Part shown: piece after piece, positions 1 to 16,589 of the stretch | Position numbering within the stretch: position 1 is the stretch's first letter | Layout: each line of letters opens with the position of its first letter | From: an uncultured bacterium | GTDB lineage: Bacteria > Abyssobacteria > SURF-5 | Reading direction: 5' to 3' | Assembly: GCA_964607485.1 (NCBI GenBank) | Contig: CAZSKP010000014.1 | Span: 49,441 to 113,440 of the forward strand | Length of the DNA: 64,000 nucleotides | Notes under the pieces: model-generated | Databases searched by the model: none | Told to the model about the DNA's origin: nothing | What the model saw: only the letters and a program-made list of their open reading frames with translations | Made by a program: the position numbers and the translations under genes

Positions 1-2727
1 CACGTCTTGTTCTGCTTTCAACTGTCCGATGGAAGCGACTGCACTATTGAGTGCCGCAGCAAGCGCCGGGAGCCGGTCCTTTGCATCGCCAATGCGTTTC
101 TTCTTGATGGCATCACTAATGTGGATTACGACATTAGCCACTTCTGTTATCCACAAATTGCCTGCCACCCCCTTAAGCGCATGGACATAACGGTAAGCGC
201 CATCTGTATCGCCTTCGTCAAAAAAGCGGCTCAAATCGGCGGCAGCGTTGCCGTAATCGCACGAGAATACCAGCAATGCCTTAGCATAGGCTTCCGGATT
301 CTGCCAGTGCTGTATGCCTTTTTCTATATCGACGCCATCAAGAGGTGGCAGTTCCAATACGGATTGGGGTCCGGTATCTGGTTGAATTTGCACAACCATT
401 TCGCCCACGCCTTCCGGGACCACGTCTTCCATTGTTCTAAAAAGCTTGCTAAAATCGATCGGCTTGGCCACAACAGCATCCATTCCCGCTTCGAAACACT
501 TGTCCTTTTCCCCTTTCATTATGCTGGCTGTTATGGCGATGACCGGCATATGTCCTCCGGTGCCGGCCTCCAGAGCGCGAATACGTGCCGTAGCCTCAAG
601 CCCGTCCATTTCTGGCATCTGTACATCCATGAGAACGACATCGATCTTCTCTCGCAAAAAAGCCTCCACGGCCTCACGGCCATTGCGGGCCACCGTAACC
701 TTGTGACCCTGCTGCTCGAGGCGAATTTTGGCTAGGGCAACATTCGTTGCCATGTCTTCAGCCAATAATACCTTGAAACCTCGTCGAGAACTTGGCGAAA
801 CAGCTCTGCCTGGAACGACAAACAGATCAGCCTCTTCCGGAACTAGGTCGGTAGGGGTCATGTTGACCGTGAAATGAAATGTGCTTCCTTTACCCACCTC
901 GCTCTCCGCCCAGATCCGGCCTCCCATCAGCTCAACCAACTCCCGCGCAATGGTGGTGCCCAGACCGGTACCGCCAAACCGGCGCGTAGTCGAAGTATCG
1001 GCCTGGGTAAACGGTTCGAATATCCGGCTCAACTCGTCAGTCGAGATGCCAATCCCCGTATCCTCGACCATGAAATGAAGTTGACCTTCCTCCTCAGCGG
1101 GAAGCAGTCGCATGGACACACTGCCCCTTTCCGTAAACTTGAGAGCGTTGCCCACCAGATTGATAATGATCTGCCTGAGGCGCAACGGGTCACCAATAAA
1201 CGCTCCCGACAAAGATGGGTGAATATCAAGCTGCAGCCCAAGTCCTTTCTCCCGCGCTTTCATGTTCATCGTCGCATGAATTTCCTGCATCAATCGGAGT
1301 ATACTGAAAGGACGATGTTCAATGGTCAACTTGCCGCTTTCCATTTTGCTGATATCAAGGATATCGTCTATCAATCTCAGGAGACCACTAGCGGAGATTT
1401 GTGCGATAGTGAGATGCTTGCGCTGATGTTCCGGTAGCGATGGGTCTTCCAATACCAGTTCCAAGAAACCGAGAATGGTATTCATCGGCGTTCGAATCTC
1501 ATGGGACATGTTGGCCAGAAAATTGCTCTTGGCCGCATTGGCCATTTCGGCCTGGACAGTGGCGAGCTCAGATTTCTTGCTCGCCTCTTCCGCCTCCTCA
1601 CGCGCCTTGACCAACTCCGTCACGTCAACGAAAGACGCGATGCCGCCTGTGACTTCACCCGAGGTGTCGCGAATAAGAGTGGCGTTCTTTAGAATCGTCA
1701 GGCGACGGCCATCCTTCGTGACGATCATGCATTGCCTGCGAAAAATGGGCTCTTTGGACTCAAGGACACAAAGCCCGCACTCCATCATGCACGACTCGCC
1801 CGACAGAATATTGCAGTGTTGGCCAACTGCTTCTTTCTCGCTAAAGCCTGTCAGCCGGCAAAACTCGCGGTTGACACTGGTGATGGTCTTGTCAGCGTCA
1901 ACCGTGAACATTGCGGTGGCCGCCGTATCCAGAATATGTTGCTGGAATTGGTTAATACGCAGGATTTCCGCACTCGCCTGTTCATGCTCAGCGGTCTGAT
2001 AAGCCAAGCGCTGCGCCCCCAGTCCGATTCCAGACAGCCCGATCATCAAAAACAGGGCATGGCCAATATATACCCCTCTAGTATGAGATTTCTTGATTGC
2101 CCACAGGGGTGCCATAGGTATTGAGATGCTTATTCCTCCACGTATGTCTCCCTCCCGGTACCCTTGTACGGCATGGCATTGTAGGCACTCCTTTGTAGTA
2201 ATTAATGGGCGCATCAAACGCATATAAGCCTTGCCTTCTATTTCTTCGATCGAACTAACTTCTTCCATTCCTTGTTCGAAAGCTTTTAAAGCCTGGATCT
2301 CCCAGGCGTCCGGCGCATTCTCCGGACGTATGGGATCAATGCTCGTAATATGGCCAATGGAACCATACTCTTCATGGCCCAACTCATGAACTTGGCGAGT
2401 CATATAAGCCGGATTGATTTTAGTCAGCCGGGTTCCCGAAGAAGTAGTGATTTCGCGCTCTGACGCCTTGAGGTAGGGATTAGGAGTTGCTATCTCAGAT
2501 ACCGGCACATAGACACCCCCATGTTTCGCATTCCATTCACGATAGACAACGTCTTTCTGATGCAGCGCTCTGGCCTCAGTGCGGGCCATAGAAAGGATTT
2601 CCTGTCTCGAAAGGTGGACATTCCAACCCAGTGATATCGCGACGATAACTGTCCAAACTGCCGCCATGATCCAACCGACTCGCTTCCATTGAATCGGATA
2701 CGCGCCTGTCCCTTCTAGCTTGTCCAT
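1..2727 (-). CDS. Hybrid sensor histidine kinase (DUF3365-type heme-c periplasmic domain, PAS, HisKA/HATPase, receiver, Hpt); runs off the left edge
   Basis: Absent from the ORF track because there is no stop in the window. Manual translation from ATG 2727 (AGGAAG RBS) gives WNAKHGGVYVP, CLQCH, FLANMSHEIRTPMN, NLVGNALKFT, DTGIG, GGTGLG, VLMDVQMPEMDG and HALKGVAGNL in one frame. Confidence 0.93.
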   Translation of the reverse strand, partial: MDKLEGTGAYPIQWKRVGWIMAAVWTVIVAISLGWNVHLSRQEILSMARTEARALHQKDVVYREWNAKHGGVYVPVSEIATPNPYLKASEREITTSSGTRLTKINPAYMTRQVHELGHEEYGSIGHITSIDPIRPENAPDAWEIQALKAFEQGMEEVSSIEEIEGKAYMRLMRPLITTKECLQCHAVQGYREGDIRGGISISIPMAPLWAIKKSHTRGVYIGHALFLMIGLSGIGLGAQRLAYQTAEHEQASAEILRINQFQQHILDTAATAMFTVDADKTITSVNREFCRLTGFSEKEAVGQHCNILSGESCMMECGLCVLESKEPIFRRQCMIVTKDGRRLTILKNATLIRDTSGEVTGGIASFVDVTELVKAREEAEEASKKSELATVQAEMANAAKSNFLANMSHEIRTPMNTILGFLELVLEDPSLPEHQRKHLTIAQISASGLLRLIDDILDISKMESGKLTIEHRPFSILRLMQEIHATMNMKAREKGLGLQLDIHPSLSGAFIGDPLRLRQIIINLVGNALKFTERGSVSMRLLPAEEEGQLHFMVEDTGIGISTDELSRIFEPFTQADTSTTRRFGGTGLGTTIARELVELMGGRIWAESEVGKGSTFHFTVNMTPTDLVPEEADLFVVPGRAVSPSSRRGFKVLLAEDMATNVALAKIRLEQQGHKVTVARNGREAVEAFLREKIDVVLMDVQMPEMDGLEATARIRALEAGTGGHMPVIAITASIMKGEKDKCFEAGMDAVVAKPIDFSKLFRTMEDVVPEGVGEMVVQIQPDTGPQSVLELPPLDGVDIEKGIQHWQNPEAYAKALLVFSCDYGNAAADLSRFFDEGDTDGAYRYVHALKGVAGNLWITEVANVVIHISDAIKKKRIGDAKDRLPALAAALNSAVASIGQLKAEQDV

Positions 2728-7859: not shown

Positions 7860-10800
7860 TCAGCTCGATTCATCCTGCGTCCTCGGGCTTGCATTCGAGC
7901 CGGGCGACAGCTCCTCTTTCCACTGCAGATACGTGCTGTAATACTGCAGGATTTCCGATTCACATCCAGAGTCAACGGACGTTCCCTCAGGCTCGATGAT
8001 CTCAATCGCTCCGGCGAATACCTCTCCACTGGAGCCGTTGATGCTGATGGCGTCCGTCTCCCCGAACGCAAGCGAATCGGCCTGCAAAATCCTCGCGTGC
8101 TCGTCGATGATCAGCCCCTGACACCCGGTGATGCACGGCTTGCCCATGCGACGAGAGTTGATTGCCGCGTGGGAGGTCATCCCGCCCTCTCGCGTGAGCA
8201 CGCCCTTCGAGGATGCAATCCCGCCGATGTCCCTTGGAGTCGTGCGGTTCGCTACCAGGATAATGTCCTCGCCTGCCTGGGTTCGGATGATGGCGTCCTC
8301 ACTGTTGAACGCGAGGTGGCCGGTGGCCACTCCCGGCGATGCGGGATTTCCCTTCGCAAGCAAATGTCTCGATGCGCTCGGGTCGAACATGGGGAGAAAA
8401 AGCTGTCTGAGGCCGGTCTCGTCGAGCCTCCCGACGGCTGTCTGCTGGTCAATGATACCTTCGTTGGCAAGCTCGACTGCAATTCTCAAAGCCGCCAAAT
8501 CCGTCCGCTTCGCCGGCCGCGTCTGGAGCAGATAGAGCGCATTCCCCTCGACCGTGAACTCGATGTCTTGCACGTCGCGCAAGTGCGCCTCGAGCTTGCG
8601 TGCCACCGCCTCGAGCTCGCGAAACGTTTCCGGAAAACGATGTTCCAGCGAGAAAGAGGGGTCTGTGCCATCGCGTGCCGAGCTCAGCGGCAGCGGTTCG
8701 CCGTGGCCGCACACCAGCACCTCGCCTTGTGAACGCGGCAGATACTCTCCGAAAATTTGGCGGTCTCCGGTTACGGGATTGCGCGAGAAGACTACTCCCG
8801 AGCACGATTCCGGGCAGAGGTTGCCAAACACCATCTGCTGGATGGTGGCCGCCGTGCAGAACTGGTGGGGGATGTTGAAAATCTGGCGGTAAGTGATGGC
8901 GCTGTCGCTCTGCCATGACAAGAATATCGCTCTGAGCGCCCCCATGAGCTGTTCTCGCGGGTCCTGCGGGAGGGGAGCGCCGATGGCGTCCGCAACTCTC
9001 TTCAACAGGGTCTTCACCATCCGTTTCATCTCTTCCGCGGACGCGCACGCCGGATTACTCTCGGCAAGAGCCGGCTCGCGCGTGTCGGAATAGCCCATGA
9101 CGGAGGAGGCGTACTTTGATATCAGCCTGAAATAGCACTCGTACGCAAACAGAGAGTCACCGGTGATATGGGCCAAACCTTCGACTGTTTCGTCGTTAAG
9201 CCCAATATTCAAGACGGTGTCCAACATCCCCGGCATTGAAACGCACGCGCCCGCCCGCACCGCCAGCAGAAGCGGCTTCTCCGGAGAGCCGAGCCTGCAC
9301 CCGGTGATTTCTTCCAGCTCCTCGATGCTCTCGGACAGGAGCTTCTGGGTGCGGTTACACAAGACATGGCCGTCGGAGAAGAACATGTTGCACACTTTCG
9401 ATGTGAGCGTAAACCCGGGAGGCACATTCAGCCCCAGCCGGGCCATTTCGGCAAGGAATGCGCCTTTCTCCCCCAGTATCGGGTAATGCGCCACCTGCCC
9501 CTCGGCTGCTCCCGGCCGGAAGAAATAGGCGAGTTTGGCCGGGTCAACCTTTTTAGAGATTGCGTCCAGGTCGCGCCTGATTCGGGCCACCTTAATGGCG
9601 GAGATTTCCCTGATGGGCGGATGACGCACGCGCTTCATGAACTCGGCGATGCGCGCGCGAGAGAAATTGAGCAGCCTCAGCGTAAGCTCGGAAAGATGTT
9701 GCAGCGTCGTCTCGCGGAATAGGCCGTCCACGAACGCGCTCGCCGCCTCGTCGGCGTGCGGAATCTGGCGTGACGAAAGAATTTCGCGCGTGGTATCGTA
9801 ATAGGTCTGAACGATCTTGTCCGTCGCCGCTCCTATCTCGGCGTTGATACGCTCGACGATCGAATAGACGGTATAGAAGTTGAGGTCGCTCGATTCCTTG
9901 AGCGCGAGGAGCTGCCTGCCGTAGTCTCTGATTTTCTTCGTGCACTGTCCCTTGGCGCGCACGCTCAAAATCATCGAATGCATCACATCGATGGCCAGCG
10001 GAAGCGCCTCGACCGTGATGTCGGCCAGAATCACATTGCTCGCCTCGCCGTAGATAATGTAGCCGAGACGTTCGAGTGTCAGGTCGAGCCAGATGGCCTC
10101 CAGCGTTACCTCGATTGTCCGCGTTTGAACCAGCGGATTCTTGATTGTGTCGCGCAGCGATATCCGCACCTCGCCGAGCATCAAGGCGGCGTTGAGGATG
10201 TCCCGCGCTCGCAGATACCCGATGAATCGCTCGAGCGATTCGAACAGATGGGGGAAGAAGAGAGAAACCGCCTCGCGCCGCCATGAATCGATGAGGGCAT
10301 GTATCTCCTCCGGCTCCTTTTTGTCTGCGCTTGTCAGCCCGGCCCTCAAGTTCTCGAAAAGTCGTTTGACATTGGGATTCTCTGCGTCGAGAATCGATTC
10401 TTCGAGCAGATTGACGAGAATCTCCACATTGGTTTCAATCAACGATCTGTTCCGCTTCTCGATACTGCCGAGGAGATACCGAAGCTGGCTGTTGACCCGG
10501 GGCGATACAATCTGCGAAATGTTGCTGAGGAGTTGGTATATGTCTTCTACCCGGTCTTCGATGTTCCCCGGATGGGGCTCAAAAACATTTGCGAGTTCCC
10601 TCTCCAGCTCTTTCAACAAGCCGAGTATCGGCTGGAATTTGTCGGGGCGGTACTGAAACACTTTCTGATACTTGTTTATTGCGGTCAGAGGCTCGGAGTC
10701 GGCGTTCTCCACATAGGCGAGGAGCGCTCGCACGAGGTCGAGGTTGCGCGGAGAGAGCTTGCTGTGGATTTCTCCCCTGATATCCTCGGTGATGGGGGAT

Positions 10801-11204
10801 GGGAACGCGTATTCTATCTCTTCGGCGAGCCCGCGCAACGCCCGAATCTCGTCTTGCGACGCGCCGAAGAAGGGCAGGCTCTTGACCAGTTGCCGCACGA
10901 GCAGATACATGTCGTCCGAGGACAGGTCTATGCACATCAGTTCTTCGAGCTTCTCGCGCATCTGCTTCGAGAGCGCAATGCTATCGGCCTTCTCGGCGAA
11001 GCCGCTGCCCCGGTAGCCGGCCAGGCTGCCCGTCTCAACGCGCAGATTCACGTTGAGCGCCTTGATGAGGTCGGTGCTGCCGAGCGGGTCGGAGACAATT
11101 CGCTCGATGCAGGCGAACACCTTCTCCCAGCTATTGATGGGCTCAAACTCTGATTCTTTGACCTCAACACTCATTCTGCCGTCAGATGCTCCCTCAGCGT
11201 TCAT
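7860..11204 (-). CDS. Atypical dikinase: glucan-water-dikinase-like N-terminal region + PPDK ATP-grasp + phospho-His swivel domain, no PEP/pyruvate barrel
   Basis: LGEKGAFLAEM..LGLNVPPGF, VRAGACVSMPGMLDTVLNIG, QQMVFGN, QDIEFTVE..LYLLQTR, GGMTSHAA. The protein stops just after the PPDK linker helix. Alternative start at 11174. Confidence 0.85.
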   Translation of the reverse strand: MNAEGASDGRMSVEVKESEFEPINSWEKVFACIERIVSDPLGSTDLIKALNVNLRVETGSLAGYRGSGFAEKADSIALSKQMREKLEELMCIDLSSDDMYLLVRQLVKSLPFFGASQDEIRALRGLAEEIEYAFPSPITEDIRGEIHSKLSPRNLDLVRALLAYVENADSEPLTAINKYQKVFQYRPDKFQPILGLLKELERELANVFEPHPGNIEDRVEDIYQLLSNISQIVSPRVNSQLRYLLGSIEKRNRSLIETNVEILVNLLEESILDAENPNVKRLFENLRAGLTSADKKEPEEIHALIDSWRREAVSLFFPHLFESLERFIGYLRARDILNAALMLGEVRISLRDTIKNPLVQTRTIEVTLEAIWLDLTLERLGYIIYGEASNVILADITVEALPLAIDVMHSMILSVRAKGQCTKKIRDYGRQLLALKESSDLNFYTVYSIVERINAEIGAATDKIVQTYYDTTREILSSRQIPHADEAASAFVDGLFRETTLQHLSELTLRLLNFSRARIAEFMKRVRHPPIREISAIKVARIRRDLDAISKKVDPAKLAYFFRPGAAEGQVAHYPILGEKGAFLAEMARLGLNVPPGFTLTSKVCNMFFSDGHVLCNRTQKLLSESIEELEEITGCRLGSPEKPLLLAVRAGACVSMPGMLDTVLNIGLNDETVEGLAHITGDSLFAYECYFRLISKYASSVMGYSDTREPALAESNPACASAEEMKRMVKTLLKRVADAIGAPLPQDPREQLMGALRAIFLSWQSDSAITYRQIFNIPHQFCTAATIQQMVFGNLCPESCSGVVFSRNPVTGDRQIFGEYLPRSQGEVLVCGHGEPLPLSSARDGTDPSFSLEHRFPETFRELEAVARKLEAHLRDVQDIEFTVEGNALYLLQTRPAKRTDLAALRIAVELANEGIIDQQTAVGRLDETGLRQLFLPMFDPSASRHLLAKGNPASPGVATGHLAFNSEDAIIRTQAGEDIILVANRTTPRDIGGIASSKGVLTREGGMTSHAAINSRRMGKPCITGCQGLIIDEHARILQADSLAFGETDAISINGSSGEVFAGAIEIIEPEGTSVDSGCESEILQYYSTYLQWKEELSPGSNASPRTQDESS

Positions 11205-14200
11205 CCAGCCCGTCGAGCGCCGACAGCGTCCGCGTCGCCAGATACTTCAAGGCCGCGCCGCCGCCCGTACACAAGGTAAACTTCTCCTTCGCCGCCTCGA
11301 TTCCGCCCATGCGACGATTCACGGCGGCAACTCCGTCGCCGCCGACCACGAGCTTTGCCTTGGCCGGGCACTGCGCGATGGCGTCCACAATCCAGTTTGT
11401 TCCCTCAGCGAATTGCTCCACTTCGTAGAGCCCGACGGTTCCGTTGTAGATGATCGTGCCTGCTTCAGCGAGAATGGCTTGAATCTCGCCCGCCGTCCTT
11501 GTGGCGGCGCCGTCGCTCGCGGCCGCAATATCAAACAGGTATGAACCGAAAGGAATGCTTTCCGCATCAAGAACGCGCGAAGACACTCGCAGGAGCGGCC
11601 TGAACTTGTCGGGCAGCTCGAAGGCAACGTGCACGTCCTTGGGAATCACGACCTTGACGTCGAATTCAGCCGCCAGCTCTATCAGCCTGTGGGCGGCCGC
11701 CACCTCGCGCTCGACCTCGAGCACGTCGGCACCCGAGAGCGAGTTGCCGGCCGACAGGCCGCTCGCAACGAGAAAGGCCGGGGATGCCGTCACAAATGTC
11801 TGAATGGCGCCATGGCGTATCATTGCTTCGACCGCGGGAATCTTTTCGCTTATCTTTACGCCGCTGACGAAAGCGACGACGGGCCGGCTGGCCTCGCGCA
11901 GTATTCCATCGAGAGTTTCAAGCTCGCTCCCCGTCAGCAAACCCAACACTTTATGCCCGTGGACGAGGTTCATCAGCGGCAGAAACGAGGCGTGAAGCCC
12001 GCGATGGGAGGCGCCGAACGCGCTGTTGACATAGTTAACCCGTCGCTGCGAGTCCGGGTCGAGATGGCCGAAGAGCGTGTCAAAAATGGCCTTCGCGAAA
12101 TGCCGATTGCCCGACTCCTCTCCTTCGTGGAAACGCAGATTCTCGAGATAGAGAACCTGACCGGGCCCGAGGCCGCGCGCGAGTGACGCTGTCTGGGCAT
12201 CGACGACGCCGGGCGCCATGAAGAAATCCCTCTCGGGAACAAGGACATTCCGGTCCCGCAGTATTTCGGCGAACCGCTGGCCTGCAATCCTCAAACTGAA
12301 CAGGTCAATGACTTGACCGTCCTCCGTCTGGAGGAACTGGAAATCTCTCTTGCGCCCATTGTGCGACATCACAATGACTCTCGCGTTTCGCTTGATGAGG
12401 TGCGCAATGTCGTCCGCGCTTGCAAATATCCGATGGTCATCGATGATTGAAGGTCTTATGGTGTTGGTGGCCGGGTCATAAAGCGGCTCCACGACGTTAT
12501 GGTCAACCCGTACCATCCAGTACATGCCGTCGAACGCTTCGTCAGGCAGGTCGAGAAGCGAGGATTTCTTTGAATAGGGACTCTCGGATTTCGGGGGCAC
12601 GTCGGGCACATAGGGAAATTGTGTGAAATCCTTCTGGTACGCCTTTTCCGCAGGCAGCATCACTTCTTCGAGGAATTCGACGTACATTTTCGACGGTCGC
12701 CACTCGTTTTCGTACCAGCCGATCAACTGGATGACGGTCATTGGCTCGCCGCTGGGAGCCACGAAATGGACGACCTCGACGTTCCTCTTACACAGCGTTA
12801 CGCCCGCCTCCGCAAGCTCTCGCAGCAGTCTGATTTGCGTTGAGCGGTCGATTTCCTTGTCCCTGAGGAACTGAAATCTCTGATGGTCGCCCTCGCGGCA
12901 TGCATCCTCCAGCACTTTGGCGGCAGCCTCGATATCATCAATCGTGTAATGTCCTCGGAGCACATAGGTGGGAGCCATGATGGAAACAGTTTCTATCGGG
13001 AACCGTATCGAGTACACCGGCGTGTGTGAAGTTCCCGCGGCGTCCACGAGAGCGGTGCTGGCGCTTGCGCCCGACGTCGTCTCGAAGATGTTTCCTGTCG
13101 CGTCGGTGCCGCGCCGTATGTCTTTCTTGTACTCTATCGGGTCGATTATGTCGGGGCCGACGTGCTCGCCGGTGAGCGCGTGATAGGTCGGCCCGATTCC
13201 CTCGAGCACCATTGCGCCGGCAACCTCGTAGAATCCGTTCCAGTCAAACCGGCCCTCCTCGGCGCCGCGGTGCATTGCCACCTCGACGAGACGGTTCAGA
13301 TTGGCCAGACATCCAGTCGTGCACGAGGCCGGGGAAAGAAAGTAATGCTTCGCGGGATCATACTTGTGGTCATTGATGTGCCTTATGAAGGTGGCATCGC
13401 GCCACTCGTCTTCCTTGCTCGAGCCGGGCGCGGTGATCATTGCCCGCAGGGCGCCGGCGCGCCTGTGGCGGTTGACGCCGTCCAAGTTGTTGAAGCGGCC
13501 AGTCGCATCTATGGCGACGTGTACAGGCATCCCGGCCAGTATGAAGCATTTCCACGGATAGTTCGCCGGGTCTCTGAATACCGGGTGGCTGAACACGAGC
13601 GATCGCTTCCCGTCCAGCTCAATCCAATCACGACCGTATTGAACGGTGCCCGGATAGCGACCCTGAACATAATCCTTCTCGTTCATCAGCTCGGCGAGGC
13701 GCTTGGCATCGGGGCCGCCCACCGCGATGACGCGCAGCGTGTCGCTCTTCGAGGCTATGCGGAACGTGCAGCTTCCCATGCGGCCGCCCGGAGCGTTGAT
13801 GGTGATGTTGTACACTCCCGGCAGTGAGGGATACAGTATCGAGTTCGGCCTGCTGATGGTCTGCCATCGCTGTCGCTGTCCATCATACTGGTCGATCGAC
13901 AGAAAGGTCACCCGGTCGAAGAGCTCCGTCTTCTCGTTGTAATCCAGGTGATGAACCCGGATGGTCGCCCGGAGCTTGTCGCCGTATTCGTATACATCAT
14001 GTATCAGTATTTCCCAGTCGTATTCGCGGCTGAGCCGGAGCGCGTATTTGCGAAGCGCATCGTAGTATCGCCCCATCACATGATGCACATTCTCAAGCGA
14101 CGCGGCGGTGAGCAGCGAAGTCGCGTACAGCTTGTGCCGGTTCTCGTGGAGCGCGACCATCGCGACAGCCTCTCCCGTCTCGTCACGCAAAACCTCCTGC

Positions 14201-16482
14201 AGGATGATAGGCTGCGACTCGAGGAAGAGCAGCCTCACAGCGTCCTCGGTCAATTCGCGGTCGGATACGCGGATCGTGCCCGTGCCCCCCATGGAGCCTG
14301 CGTACATGCGGGCTCGACGTTTCGTGGCGTGCGCCTGCGTTTTCTGTTCATACTTCCGGGCAAGACGCGGGATGTGACGCTTTGAAAAGTCGGTCTGTTG
14401 AGCGATGTCAAGCTTTGCCCAGTGACGGCTTGCCGCGGGCATACCCGGCGTGAATGTGTCAGCCCTCTCTCCGAGCTCTCGCTTAAGAGAATGGCCGGCG
14501 ATGAGGCGCAGCGCTTCCTCGACATCCGCCACAGCCTCGTCGAGGAAAAAGGCGATGCTCACCTGGGTGCCGGCATCGTTCTGGCTGACATAGACCTGGT
14601 TAGGGTCGAACATAATTCTGGAACTTCCGAAATTGAGATTCGAGGTCAACTGCACCCACCATTCGGGCAGGCTGAGCACTTCAAGTTCCTGCGCTTTCGC
14701 CTTGAAGAGCGAGATTATCCTCTCTCGCGAGAGCCTCGAATCGACCACCGCGTTCAAGCGGAGAAGCTTGCCGCGCGGAATATTCGTCTTGAATTCGTTA
14801 GTGGCGAGCAGCTTTGTATCATCACCGGCCAGCCCCAGCATCCTCGCCACACCGGCGAAGCGCTTCGGATTCTTCTTATGGATGACCTGGTACACTCCGG
14901 CTACTCTGTATGTTGGCTGGACAACTGCCGGTTCGTCATGCTTCTCGACAATATCGGCTCCCAGCACAAAGATCTTCCCCATCTCGGAAAGGGCGGATAT
15001 CCCGAGCGCATACGCAACTTCTTCGGCAGGCATGATGCCGAACGCGCTTCTTCCTTCAGGGTATTTCTCATTTAAGAGGGAGTGGACGGTCGCATCGTCA
15101 CTTGTCTGTGTCCGAGCGACAACAAGTTGTGCCCCTTCTTTACGAATACGCTCCAGTAACTGCGGCTCAATCTTACGAGCGTGATCTTCGCTGATGAGGA
15201 TATAGTCGATGCCCAAAGCCTTCCAGGGAAGGGACTCAAGAACGGCCGGCGCTTCGGTCAGGCTCCCGTGATACACACTGATGGCAGATTTCTGTTTGCC
15301 GATAGAAAGGAAGCCTTTCTCATCACCCTCGACCTCTTCATAGATTCCAAGCTGCGAGTTGTACTTCAGCCACTGCATAATGTCTTTGGCTTTCTGCCCG
15401 ACAAAGACCACTGCCTCCAGCTCATTGACATACGCGCTGCCGATCCTGCGCAGAGCGGCGATAATGTTCTGGTTGTATCCGACAACCGCAATCCGGCGCG
15501 GTGCGTTTCCGGGTGAGAGATGCGCCAAGATACGGGAACGAATGGCCGCAAGATGTCCGGCCTCGAGCTCGAGGAAGGGCGATTCCGAAAGTCTGAACAC
15601 ATCGTAGAATTCATTCATCCCCGGAACAAACTTCGCTAACTCATCCAGCGAGCGCTTCCTCTTTTCGGGATCCCTCTGAAAACGATCCAACTGAGCGAGA
15701 AGCCTGTCGATTTCGCGAACTTCCGTTACCGGCGCTATCCTCATCCCTCGTTGCTCAATCAGTGCACGAACCGCGTCAAGCGAGGGATGGCCCACCTCCT
15801 CCATAACGTATGCTTCCTCGGAAAGTTCGGGGGTTTGCTTCTCGACTCTTCTCGCCATCGCGGCGAGTGCACCCGACCGAGCCTGCATGTTAAACATGAA
15901 CGAAGCTGCTTCCGACAGAATTCCTTCAGGCACGTGTCGATGAACACTGGGACGATTGAAGTCGTCACAGAACTCGGCGAAAAGATGGTAAACGCCGTCT
16001 TCGCCGTCAAATATGTTCGTCCCGTATGCCGCCTTGAACTCCTCTGCAAGAGCTTCCTCCCCGATTCCTTCCCTCGCCATGAACTCCCGGAGCCCGGAGT
16101 GGAGAAGGGGAAAGAGTTGGAGGCGTCGCGCCATCCACTCGACACCTTCGTGAACGAGCGTCCGGTTCAATACGCGGCGGCGACGATGCTGAAAGCTTTC
16201 GTTCGAGTTTTGAGCGGTTATCTCTGAGCGACAGATCCATTCGAGGAAGGAGTACGTGTCGAGGACATCGGAATAGATGATTCCCTGATTGTCGGCGAGT
16301 GTCGCTATAGGGAATTGTTCGAGGGCTGGTGCGAGATCTATGTCTTGAAGCGCCGGGTCGGCGCGCGCAGCTGTCTCCACAAGTCGATGAATGTAAGTTG
16401 AAGAGGGCCGGTGCAAAATTATCGGTATCTGAGAGAAGCCTTCGGGACGGGCGAGAAGCTCGGGTGGGCTTGGCAAAAGCAT
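11194..16482 (-). CDS. Giant fusion: unknown domain + degenerate GAPDH + linker + divergent GAPDH + phosphoglycerate kinase
   Basis: GAPDH motifs IDATGRF, ASCTTGCLA, YHALT, TTSGA, WYENEW. PGK motifs RVDHNV, SHNGR, LENLRF, AFGASHR, TGGGAAL. Start set at ATG 16482 with GAGGAG RBS. Confidence 0.88.
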   Translation of the reverse strand: MLLPSPPELLARPEGFSQIPIILHRPSSTYIHRLVETAARADPALQDIDLAPALEQFPIATLADNQGIIYSDVLDTYSFLEWICRSEITAQNSNESFQHRRRRVLNRTLVHEGVEWMARRLQLFPLLHSGLREFMAREGIGEEALAEEFKAAYGTNIFDGEDGVYHLFAEFCDDFNRPSVHRHVPEGILSEAASFMFNMQARSGALAAMARRVEKQTPELSEEAYVMEEVGHPSLDAVRALIEQRGMRIAPVTEVREIDRLLAQLDRFQRDPEKRKRSLDELAKFVPGMNEFYDVFRLSESPFLELEAGHLAAIRSRILAHLSPGNAPRRIAVVGYNQNIIAALRRIGSAYVNELEAVVFVGQKAKDIMQWLKYNSQLGIYEEVEGDEKGFLSIGKQKSAISVYHGSLTEAPAVLESLPWKALGIDYILISEDHARKIEPQLLERIRKEGAQLVVARTQTSDDATVHSLLNEKYPEGRSAFGIMPAEEVAYALGISALSEMGKIFVLGADIVEKHDEPAVVQPTYRVAGVYQVIHKKNPKRFAGVARMLGLAGDDTKLLATNEFKTNIPRGKLLRLNAVVDSRLSRERIISLFKAKAQELEVLSLPEWWVQLTSNLNFGSSRIMFDPNQVYVSQNDAGTQVSIAFFLDEAVADVEEALRLIAGHSLKRELGERADTFTPGMPAASRHWAKLDIAQQTDFSKRHIPRLARKYEQKTQAHATKRRARMYAGSMGGTGTIRVSDRELTEDAVRLLFLESQPIILQEVLRDETGEAVAMVALHENRHKLYATSLLTAASLENVHHVMGRYYDALRKYALRLSREYDWEILIHDVYEYGDKLRATIRVHHLDYNEKTELFDRVTFLSIDQYDGQRQRWQTISRPNSILYPSLPGVYNITINAPGGRMGSCTFRIASKSDTLRVIAVGGPDAKRLAELMNEKDYVQGRYPGTVQYGRDWIELDGKRSLVFSHPVFRDPANYPWKCFILAGMPVHVAIDATGRFNNLDGVNRHRRAGALRAMITAPGSSKEDEWRDATFIRHINDHKYDPAKHYFLSPASCTTGCLANLNRLVEVAMHRGAEEGRFDWNGFYEVAGAMVLEGIGPTYHALTGEHVGPDIIDPIEYKKDIRRGTDATGNIFETTSGASASTALVDAAGTSHTPVYSIRFPIETVSIMAPTYVLRGHYTIDDIEAAAKVLEDACREGDHQRFQFLRDKEIDRSTQIRLLRELAEAGVTLCKRNVEVVHFVAPSGEPMTVIQLIGWYENEWRPSKMYVEFLEEVMLPAEKAYQKDFTQFPYVPDVPPKSESPYSKKSSLLDLPDEAFDGMYWMVRVDHNVVEPLYDPATNTIRPSIIDDHRIFASADDIAHLIKRNARVIVMSHNGRKRDFQFLQTEDGQVIDLFSLRIAGQRFAEILRDRNVLVPERDFFMAPGVVDAQTASLARGLGPGQVLYLENLRFHEGEESGNRHFAKAIFDTLFGHLDPDSQRRVNYVNSAFGASHRGLHASFLPLMNLVHGHKVLGLLTGSELETLDGILREASRPVVAFVSGVKISEKIPAVEAMIRHGAIQTFVTASPAFLVASGLSAGNSLSGADVLEVEREVAAAHRLIELAAEFDVKVVIPKDVHVAFELPDKFRPLLRVSSRVLDAESIPFGSYLFDIAAASDGAATRTAGEIQAILAEAGTIIYNGTVGLYEVEQFAEGTNWIVDAIAQCPAKAKLVVGGDGVAAVNRRMGGIEAAKEKFTLCTGGGAALKYLATRTLSALDGLDER

Positions 16483-16589
16483 AATCGCGCTCCTCAGATG
16501 TAACACGCCTATACTTTTGGCAGCACAATACTTATGCAATCCGCGTCACAACCTGAAAGGTGGGAGCGAACAGAATTCAGCCTACGGTA

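What the first reader, a model, noticed from the sequence alone, without database searches (positions are those of the whole stretch)
14490..15500. Second, catalytically dead GAPDH-like domain inside the same polypeptide
Seen: RRIAVVGY, WLKYNSQLG (cf. LLKYDS.HG), LPWKALGIDYIL (cf. LPW..LGVD.V), NIPRGKLLRLN (cf. P.P.GS..DL), IMFD and VSIAFFLDE (cf. VK...WYDNE) occur in GAPDH order, but there is no SCTT cysteine or catalytic His. Inference: a pseudo-enzyme that may pair with the active domain to mimic the GAPDH dimer/tetramer, or act as a scaffold or ligand sensor.
Basis: partly seen in the sequence, partly recalled or inferred. Interest (0 to 1): 0.7.

Follow-up and report, generated by a model that had tools for sequence, protein, structure and literature searches.

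The report
Dead GAPDH partnered with live GAPDH
This bacterial protein carries a conserved copy of the sugar-splitting enzyme GAPDH that lacks its catalytic residues and sits in the same chain as an intact copy, where it is predicted to stand in for half of the enzyme's usual four subunits, an arrangement shared by a family of giant fused glycolysis proteins.

Summary
Confirmed. Window 14491-15498 (-) is a full two-lobed type I GAPDH fold (Foldseek E 2.8e-17, VIA Z 18.4) with no cysteine. It lies inside a 1,762-aa protein: N-domain, dead GAPDH, linker domain, intact GAPDH, PGK. It is under purifying selection (catalytic lobe dN/dS 0.08, like the intact copy). It is old: 24 of 25 homologs carry an intact GAPDH 702-749 residues downstream, and the 25th is truncated. 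Twelve are signal-peptide-like glycolysis polyproteins, two named Omnitrophota. A complex prediction pairs dead and intact domains sheet-to-sheet (0.77, best control 0.00); this may reflect memory of GAPDH tetramers. Ser48 survives in dead copies (24/25) and Asp186 in intact ones (23/24); both are lost in the same protein. This suggests two chains form a half-active tetramer. Against: a 957-aa model was inconclusive and the interface is not extra-conserved at depth. NAD sensing is unlikely. The scan noted this gene before, but not on other DNA.

The parts
11194..16482 (-). Whole gene, 1,762 aa from the ATG at 16482 (GAGGAG 7 nt upstream); the ORF is open to a TTG at 16539
   Evidence: (P0003)
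15751..16482 (-). N-terminal region of no known family (residues 1-244); no signal-peptide-like hydrophobic stretch; found in the close clade and P0013 only
15511..15750 (-). Conserved cap (residues 245-324) directly before the dead domain, detected in all 12 distant homologs and P0013
   Evidence: HMM i-E 4e-15 to 2e-5 in distant members
14491..15498 (-). Catalytically dead GAPDH-fold domain (residues 329-664), the finding: Rossmann lobe plus catalytic/oligomerisation lobe
15355..15357 (-). Ser52 of the segment (Ser48 position of GAPDH, in KYNSQLG), kept in 24 of 25 dead domains and 0 of 24 intact domains
14944..14946 (-). Glu189 of the segment, at the inferred catalytic His176 position
14263..14460 (-). 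Stalk, predicted as a long helix at low confidence
13843..14265 (-). Folded alpha/beta linker domain of unknown family, confidently modelled (block pLDDT mostly 65-90); present in all 12 distant homologs, three copies in P0024
12640..13818 (-). Divergent but intact GAPDH: Cys1054 (13321-13323), His1101 (13180-13182), Asp186-equivalent (13150-13152); Asp32 replaced by Gly in 24 of 24
11203..12576 (-). Phosphoglycerate kinase domain with substrate-binding motifs present
7860..11204 (-). Overlapping downstream gene: helical N-terminal half plus PPDK ATP-binding and phospho-His domains, without the pyruvate-binding domain; follows the fusion in the window and in L006, L010 and L014

Best explanation
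The segment is a GAPDH-fold domain that lacks the catalytic cysteine and histidine and likely serves as a built-in structural subunit for the intact GAPDH in the same polypeptide. Shown: the fold, the loss of catalytic and NAD-binding residues, purifying selection, and fixed linkage to an intact GAPDH. Predicted: the catalytic-lobe beta-sheets of the dead and intact domains pack face to face, as in the large O-P interface of the GAPDH tetramer. Inferred: two polypeptides complete a half-active tetramer in which intact domains sit diagonally (O and Q) and each neighbours two dead ones; the dead Rossmann lobe (Ser48, plus Arg13 in distant members) would grip the intact domain's S-loop (Asp186), and the dead domain's shortened S-loop (conserved Pro-x-Tyr) would complete the intact domain's adenosine pocket. 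Inferred purpose: a polyprotein that strings several oligomeric enzymes together needs only two chains, not four, to build its GAPDH.
For: Fold. Dead. Selection against L006: dN/dS 0.083 for the dead catalytic lobe, 0.175 for its Rossmann lobe, 0.088 intact GAPDH, 0.104 PGK; against L014 0.092 versus 0.068. Linkage: 24 of 25 homologs have an SCTTG-type GAPDH 702-749 residues from the dead domain's start, the other is truncated in the linker, while flanking enzymes vary (TIM, aldolase, PFK, PGK, enolase). All 14 hits among 1.84 billion representatives are such fusions or frameshifted fragments of them. Dead and intact domains each form one group, with P0013 sister to the window's clade in both (quick tree). 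Complex: score 0.77, best of 3 controls 0.00; runs agree in at least 91% of contacts, partner pLDDT at least 74; the mark was reached by 116 of 157 solved complexes and 2 of 215 mismatched pairs; the interface is the catalytic-lobe sheet of both chains. Residue split: Ser48 in 13/13 ordinary, 0/24 intact, 24/25 dead; Asp186 in 13/13, 23/24, 0/25; Arg13 in 13/13, 0/24, 12/25. The only dead domain without Ser48 and the only intact domain without Asp186 are in the same protein, P0031. In 13 close homologs the predicted interface is more conserved than the rest of the domain (0.89 vs 0.77, p 4e-5; vs rest of the lobe 0.81, p 0.005). That the S-loop Leu/Asp/Pro contact the R-axis neighbour and its NAD pocket is from PMC6400076 (section read).
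Against: The complex pass may come from memory of solved GAPDH tetramers, and no dead-dead, intact-intact or ordinary-GAPDH control was run. The 957-aa single-chain AlphaFold2 model did not resolve the pair: pLDDT 49.5, pTM 0.41. Across 14 diverse homologs the predicted interface is no more conserved than the rest (1.62 vs 1.70, p 0.86), and in the close set the count of invariant sites versus the rest of the lobe is not significant (21/45 vs 43/135, p 0.10). The Ser48-Asp186 and Arg13-Asp186 contacts are recalled; two paper searches did not retrieve them. The co-loss in P0031 is one event and depends on a one-residue gap. The dead S-loop register is uncertain (model pLDDT under 50 at 192-208). 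The window's own clade has lost Arg13 (0 of 13). Activity of the intact domain is itself inferred from motifs.
Confidence: 0.65

Rival explanations
1. The dead domain is mainly an allosteric sensor: it binds a nucleotide or phosphorylated metabolite and switches the intact GAPDH or the PGK.
For: GYNQN and KYNSQLG are near-invariant in 13 close homologs; Lys replaces Arg231 in 21 of 25 and Asp312 is kept in 25 of 25; a predicted contact with the intact domain would allow coupling.
Against: NAD contacts listed in PMC6400076 are lost: Arg10, Gly12, Asp32, Asn313 in 25 of 25, Gly9 in 23 of 25; phosphate-site Thr150, Thr179 and Gly209 in 25 of 25. The Rossmann lobe is among the faster-evolving parts (dN/dS 0.175). 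GYNQN is not kept in the 12 distant members.
Confidence: 0.14
2. The dead domain is a docking scaffold for other modules (PGK, the PPDK-like partner, TIM or the linker domain) and does not occupy a GAPDH subunit position.
For: The fusion is followed by the PPDK-like gene in 4 of 4 loci with enough downstream DNA; interface conservation disappears at depth; the single-chain model did not pack the two domains.
Against: The flanking enzymes change across the family while the dead-linker-intact triplet does not; the predicted mixed interface passed its controls.
Confidence: 0.11
3. The domain has gained a different catalytic activity that does not use a cysteine.
For: Invariant or near-invariant polar residues at the former active-site cleft: Asp324 and Glu325 in 25 of 25, Gln208 in 14 of 14, Glu189 in 20 of 25.
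Against: No cofactor pocket; the residue at the Cys position varies freely (Ala, Ser, Thr, Val, Gly); no non-cysteine enzyme outranks GAPDH in the fold search.
Confidence: 0.07
4. The domain is a decaying leftover of a recent tandem duplication.
For: Weak sequence similarity to GAPDH.
Against: dN/dS 0.08-0.18; full length kept in 25 homologs down to 24% identity; it is less similar to its own intact partner (hhalign E 0.0065) than to ordinary GAPDH (E 3.2e-5); dead domains form one deep group.
Confidence: 0.02

Closest known systems
Type I phosphorylating GAPDH (TIGR01534; PDB 7c5o, 5vmt, 7bex, 8jb1)
   Same: Two-lobed fold over the whole length; KYDS-like, LPW and terminal strand-helix motifs; predicted sheet-to-sheet dimer.
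   Different: No catalytic Cys or His, no NAD pocket residues, S-loop about 7 residues shorter by the interface register; fused in one chain with an intact GAPDH.
Trypanosomatid GAPDH-like protein TbGAPDHL (PMC4106842; abstract and section 10 read)
   Same: A GAPDH homolog with the nucleophilic Cys replaced, kept for a presumed structural role.
   Different: TbGAPDHL is a separate eukaryotic flagellar protein, keeps GINGFG and is poorly conserved; this one is bacterial, has lost the glycine loop, is as constrained in its catalytic lobe as the intact enzyme, and is fused to it.
Petunia benzaldehyde synthase alpha2beta2 (PMC13418739; abstract only)
   Same: Works like the proposed model: catalytically dead paralogous subunits needed for a heterotetramer and contributing to the live subunit's pocket.
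   Different: SDR family, two separate genes, plant, shown by structure; here GAPDH family, one chain, predicted only.
Chloroplast A2B2-GAPDH (bioRxiv 10.1101/2021.11.21.469434; passages read)
   Same: A 2+2 GAPDH tetramer with like subunits at O and Q.
   Different: A and B are about 81% identical, separate chains, both with active sites; regulation is by a C-terminal extension.
Omnitrophota giant proteins, Archaeovorins (bioRxiv 10.1101/2023.11.21.568195, section 8 and passages; bioRxiv 10.64898/2026.06.07.730766, passages)
   Same: Signal-peptide-bearing multi-enzyme chains with glycolytic and PPDK domains; two distant homologs here are named Omnitrophota.
   Different: Those are 10,000 aa or more; the text read names TIM, PGI, FBPase, PGM, aldolase and PPDK but no dead/live GAPDH pair ('GAPDH' occurs 0 times in the 2023 preprint). 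The window's clade has no signal-like stretch.
PGK-TIM fusion of Thermotoga maritima (PMC7729029; passages)
   Same: Glycolytic enzymes fused in one bacterial chain.
   Different: No GAPDH and no dead domain.

Membership tests
Type I GAPDH (enzyme) | Rossmann lobe plus catalytic lobe of the GAPDH fold | tested here: met
Type I GAPDH (enzyme) | Catalytic Cys at the start of the first catalytic-lobe helix | tested here: not met
   no Cys in the segment; 0 of 25 homologs
Type I GAPDH (enzyme) | Catalytic His176 and Arg231 | tested here: not met
   Glu/Gln/Lys/Leu at 176 in 25 of 25; Arg at 231 in 1 of 25, Lys in 21; register inferred
Type I GAPDH (enzyme) | NAD pocket: GxGRIG loop, Asp32, Asn313 | tested here: not met
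   residue list from PMC6400076
Type I GAPDH (enzyme) | Pi and Ps phosphate sites (Thr150, Thr179, Thr208, Gly209) | tested here: not met
   Thr208 kept in 1 of 25, the others in 0 of 25
Type I GAPDH (enzyme) | Family score over the curated cut-off | tested here: not met
   Pfam Gp_dh_N 13.2 bits against 31.7; no TIGR01534 hit on the segment
Pseudoenzyme structural subunit (dead paralog in a mixed oligomer) | Fold kept, catalytic residues lost | tested here: met
Pseudoenzyme structural subunit (dead paralog in a mixed oligomer) | Kept by purifying selection | tested here: met
Pseudoenzyme structural subunit (dead paralog in a mixed oligomer) | Binds the active paralog at a native subunit interface | tested here: inconclusive
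   passes prediction (0.77 vs 0.00) but may be from memory; single-chain model unresolved
Pseudoenzyme structural subunit (dead paralog in a mixed oligomer) | Needed for assembly or activity of the active partner; no activity of its own | not testable with these tools
   needs biochemistry
Archaeal (type II) GAPDH / ASADH / ArgC | Closer structural match than type I GAPDH | tested here: not met
   Z 13.3 or less against 18.4 and 17.4; Atlas features did list type II clusters
Omnitrophota giant multi-enzyme proteins | Signal peptide or membrane helices, length of 10,000 aa or more | tested here: not met
   window protein 1,762 aa, best 15-residue hydropathy 0.91 in the first 50 residues; distant homologs have a signal-like stretch but are 988-2,680 aa

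The most novel reading that the evidence does not exclude
An old, undescribed family of bacterial glycolysis polyproteins, apparently exported in Omnitrophota-type members and kept in the cytoplasm in this lineage, builds GAPDH as a two-chain, half-active tetramer. In it a dead copy supplies the neighbouring S-loop and so sets the cofactor preference and activity of the live copy, the first GAPDH whose tetramer is completed by its own pseudo-enzyme.
Probability: 0.35. Interest if true: 0.78.

Novelty: new variant of a known kind. Interest (0 to 1): 0.6.

Why it matters
GAPDH is a textbook homotetramer whose cofactor pocket is completed by a neighbouring subunit. A natural version that hard-wires a dead and a live copy into one chain would separate the structural from the catalytic job of a subunit and offer a direct test of what each interface does. 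It would also explain how multi-enzyme chains in Omnitrophota-type bacteria can carry oligomeric enzymes, and it gives a small, expressible handle (about 960 aa) on those otherwise intractable proteins. Automatic annotation misses the dead domain: databases name these proteins 'phosphoglycerate kinase' or 'triose-phosphate isomerase'.

Tried and rejected
Sequence-only searches of the segment were not significant. Global hhalign misaligned; local mode worked. Recent tandem duplication: rejected; the tree is the quick IQ-TREE run on 37 rows, the careful run did not finish, and it has no outgroup. Single-chain fold of dead-linker-intact: low confidence, no verdict; its viral fold search gave nothing meaningful. 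Linker domain: best Atlas score 0.75 and weak GNAT-like matches at Z 5.5-5.8, below the level of trust; it was not folded alone. My first idea that Tyr46-Glu276 and Arg197-Asp293 pairs are also split between the two domains was dropped: the registers are unsure and Tyr46 is kept in only 13 of 25. A recalled likeness of the partner gene's N-terminal half to glucan water dikinase found no support. No match in plasmids. No RNA holder listed; contigs laid were too sparse to inform. Genomes behind L013-L016 are not held. A standalone dead domain was not found, but the word-based searches covered only 614-3,618 aa; only the phmmer search had no length limit. Paper searches that found no report of a fused dead/live GAPDH pair; the library lacks most subscription journals, and preprint supplements could not be seen and may list such domain architectures.
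Full report
Setting. The finding lies in a minus-strand ORF at 11194-16539. The likely start is the ATG at 16482, behind GAGGAG, giving 1,762 aa. Pfam and NCBIfam see a GAPDH at about residues 890-1280 and a PGK at the C-terminus, but almost nothing on the segment in question. The genome also has an ordinary gap-pgk pair on C15, an ordinary PPDK on C35 and an ordinary TIM on C3, so this gene is an extra. The nearest relative with a title is a Ca. Abyssobacteria SURF_17 contig at 84% identity. Three of 11 genomes of the phylum match the segment, the window's own included; all 11 have an ordinary GAPDH.

The observation. The six motifs are present in order. A profile of 12 segments aligns to 13 ordinary GAPDHs with E 3.2e-5. 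An AlphaFold2 model built only from the family's own 12 sequences (pLDDT 68.2, pTM 0.53) matches type I GAPDHs over both lobes: Foldseek E 2.8e-17, VIA Z 18.4 at rmsd 5.3 over 297 residues. The segment has no cysteine. Using conventional GAPDH numbering (recalled) and the functional residues listed in PMC6400076, the dead domains have lost Cys149, Thr150, His176, Thr179, Gly209, Arg10, Gly12, Asp32 and Asn313 in 25 of 25, Thr208 and Arg231 in 24 of 25, and Gly9 in 23 of 25; the partner domains keep Cys149, Thr150, His176, Thr179, Gly209, Arg231, Gly12 and Asn313 in 24 of 24. Positions around the catalytic helix and S-loop are placed with an uncertainty of a residue or two, as the model is weak there; the register of the strands comes from the symmetric predicted interface.

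It is kept, and it is old. Against L006, dN/dS is 0.083 for the dead catalytic lobe, 0.175 for its Rossmann lobe, 0.088 for the intact GAPDH and 0.104 for PGK; more distant pairs are partly saturated but agree. Word-based searches gave 11 hits each (the window's protein included) and 10; an unfiltered phmmer search of 1.84 billion representatives gave 14 hits. Nine of these are distant (24-33% identity, 988-2,680 aa) and are glycolysis polyproteins: TIM, aldolase or PFK in front, then the dead domain, linker and intact GAPDH, then sometimes PGK and enolase. Two distant members are named Ca. Omnitrophota. Eleven of 12 distant members and P0013 begin with a hydrophobic, signal-peptide-like stretch (best 15-residue hydropathy 1.96-2.63); the twelfth has one in its longer cluster mate; seven close-clade proteins tested do not (no signal-peptide predictor was available). 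I analysed 25 proteins (13 close, 12 distant) and left out partial, split or frameshifted records and three near-duplicates (P0006, P0014-P0016, P0018, P0020, P0022, P0023, P0033-P0035). In 24 of 25 an intact GAPDH motif follows 702-749 residues after the dead domain's start; P0025 ends inside the linker. An 80-residue cap before the dead domain and the linker domain after it are detected in all 12 distant members. In a quick tree of 37 rows, dead, intact and ordinary domains each form one group, and P0013 is sister to the window's clade in both the dead and the intact group. The dead domain is further from its own partner (E 0.0065) than from ordinary GAPDH. So the triplet has been inherited as a unit while its neighbours were swapped.

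How it likely works. A complex prediction of the intact domain with the dead one scored 0.77 against 0.00 for the best of three controls; runs agree in at least 91% of contacts and the partner's pLDDT is at least 74; the mark was reached by 116 of 157 solved complexes and 2 of 215 mismatched pairs. The contacts are alternate residues of the catalytic-lobe strands of both chains, which I recognise (recalled) as the O-P interface, the largest of the three (PMC10318897, passages). Because GAPDH tetramers are solved, the pass shows likeness, not binding. A second sign concerns the R-axis interface, where a subunit's S-loop (Leu, Asp186, Pro188) reaches its neighbour's cofactor pocket (PMC3728087, passages). 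Ser48, which I recall as the partner of Asp186 across this axis (not retrieved), is kept in 24 of 25 dead and 0 of 24 intact domains; Asp186 is kept in 23 of 24 intact domains and is not seen in dead ones; the two exceptions fall in the same protein, P0031. Arg13 shows the same split in the 12 distant members but is lost in the window's clade. Two domains of one chain can share only one of these interfaces, so signs of both imply two chains: a half-active tetramer with like domains on the diagonal, the geometry of A2B2-GAPDH and the logic of petunia benzaldehyde synthase. The dead S-loop keeps a Pro (21 of 25) and a Tyr two residues on, which would complete the live adenosine pocket. The live domain lacks Asp32 (Gly in 24 of 24), a residue tied to NAD versus NADP binding, so its cofactor preference is open. 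The benefit, fewer chains needed per GAPDH in a multi-enzyme polyprotein, is my inference.

Against this reading. The 957-aa single-chain model was poor (pLDDT 49.5, pTM 0.41) and gives no verdict. The predicted interface is more conserved than the rest of the domain among 13 close homologs (p 4e-5) but not among 14 diverse ones (p 0.86). The P0031 co-loss is a single event. No like-with-like control complex could be run. Activity of the intact GAPDH and PGK is read from motifs only. No RNA evidence bears on expression.

Rivals. A ligand sensor is possible, as GYNQN is near-invariant in the close clade, but the NAD and phosphate contacts are gone and that motif is not kept at depth. A scaffold for other modules fits the steady link to the PPDK-like gene (window, L006, L010, L014) but not the changing flanks. 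A new activity is not excluded (invariant Asp324, Glu325, Gln208). Decay is excluded.

What is known. Dead GAPDH homologs exist in trypanosomes, dead subunits in mixed dehydrogenase tetramers exist, and Omnitrophota giant proteins carry glycolytic domains. Six searches found no fused dead/live GAPDH. It is not a member of the GAPDH enzyme family; it works, most likely, like a pseudo-enzyme subunit. Earlier scan notes cover this same gene and its partner; none matched by sequence on other DNA. Verdict: real, conserved, a new variant of a known kind; interest 0.6.

Noticed in passing
P0025, P0026, P0027, P0030, P0031, P0036, P0037, P0038, N-terminal 450 residues: The TIM domain of the distant polyproteins looks circularly permuted: the NWK motif that starts ordinary TIM comes after the C-terminal half, and a helical insert follows the HSE-R motif (motif order in 8 of 8; profile matches of the two small pieces only E 0.02-0.04). 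It may be another way to change oligomer state.
   Followed up: partly
window 13843-14265 (-); P0024 residues about 1539-1615, 2120-2221, 2306-2400: The linker domain is a separately folding alpha/beta module of unknown family, present three times in P0024; only weak GNAT-like structural matches.
   Followed up: partly
window 7860-11204 (-); L006 5528-8827; L010 5484-8855; L014 6264-9539: A PPDK-like gene without the pyruvate-binding domain and with a 550-aa helical N-terminal half overlaps the fusion's stop and travels with it; its acceptor is unknown.
   Followed up: partly
window 12640-13818 (-): The intact GAPDH lacks Asp32 in 24 of 24 family members and has an insertion after the catalytic helix; it may accept NADP.
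   Followed up: partly
window 11203-12576 (-): The PGK domain has TASPAF where ordinary PGK has a glycine-rich GGGM stretch, and GGDG for GGGD; nucleotide preference may differ.
   Followed up: no
P0013 (2,199 aa): A link between the two groups: signal-like N-terminus like the distant polyproteins, but dead and intact GAPDH and PGK closest to the window's clade, which suggests the window's clade lost an export signal.
   Followed up: partly
P0024-P0032, C-terminal 150-250 residues: The distant polyproteins appear to share a C-terminal tail of no Pfam family (seen by eye; not tested).
   Followed up: no
P0006 and P0016; P0022, P0023, P0033: Split or frameshifted copies of the fusion; assembly error or decay was not told apart.
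   Followed up: no
L014 about 8-466 (-) and 10334-10642 (+): Extra PPDK-like pieces flank the two-gene module in this locus.
   Followed up: no
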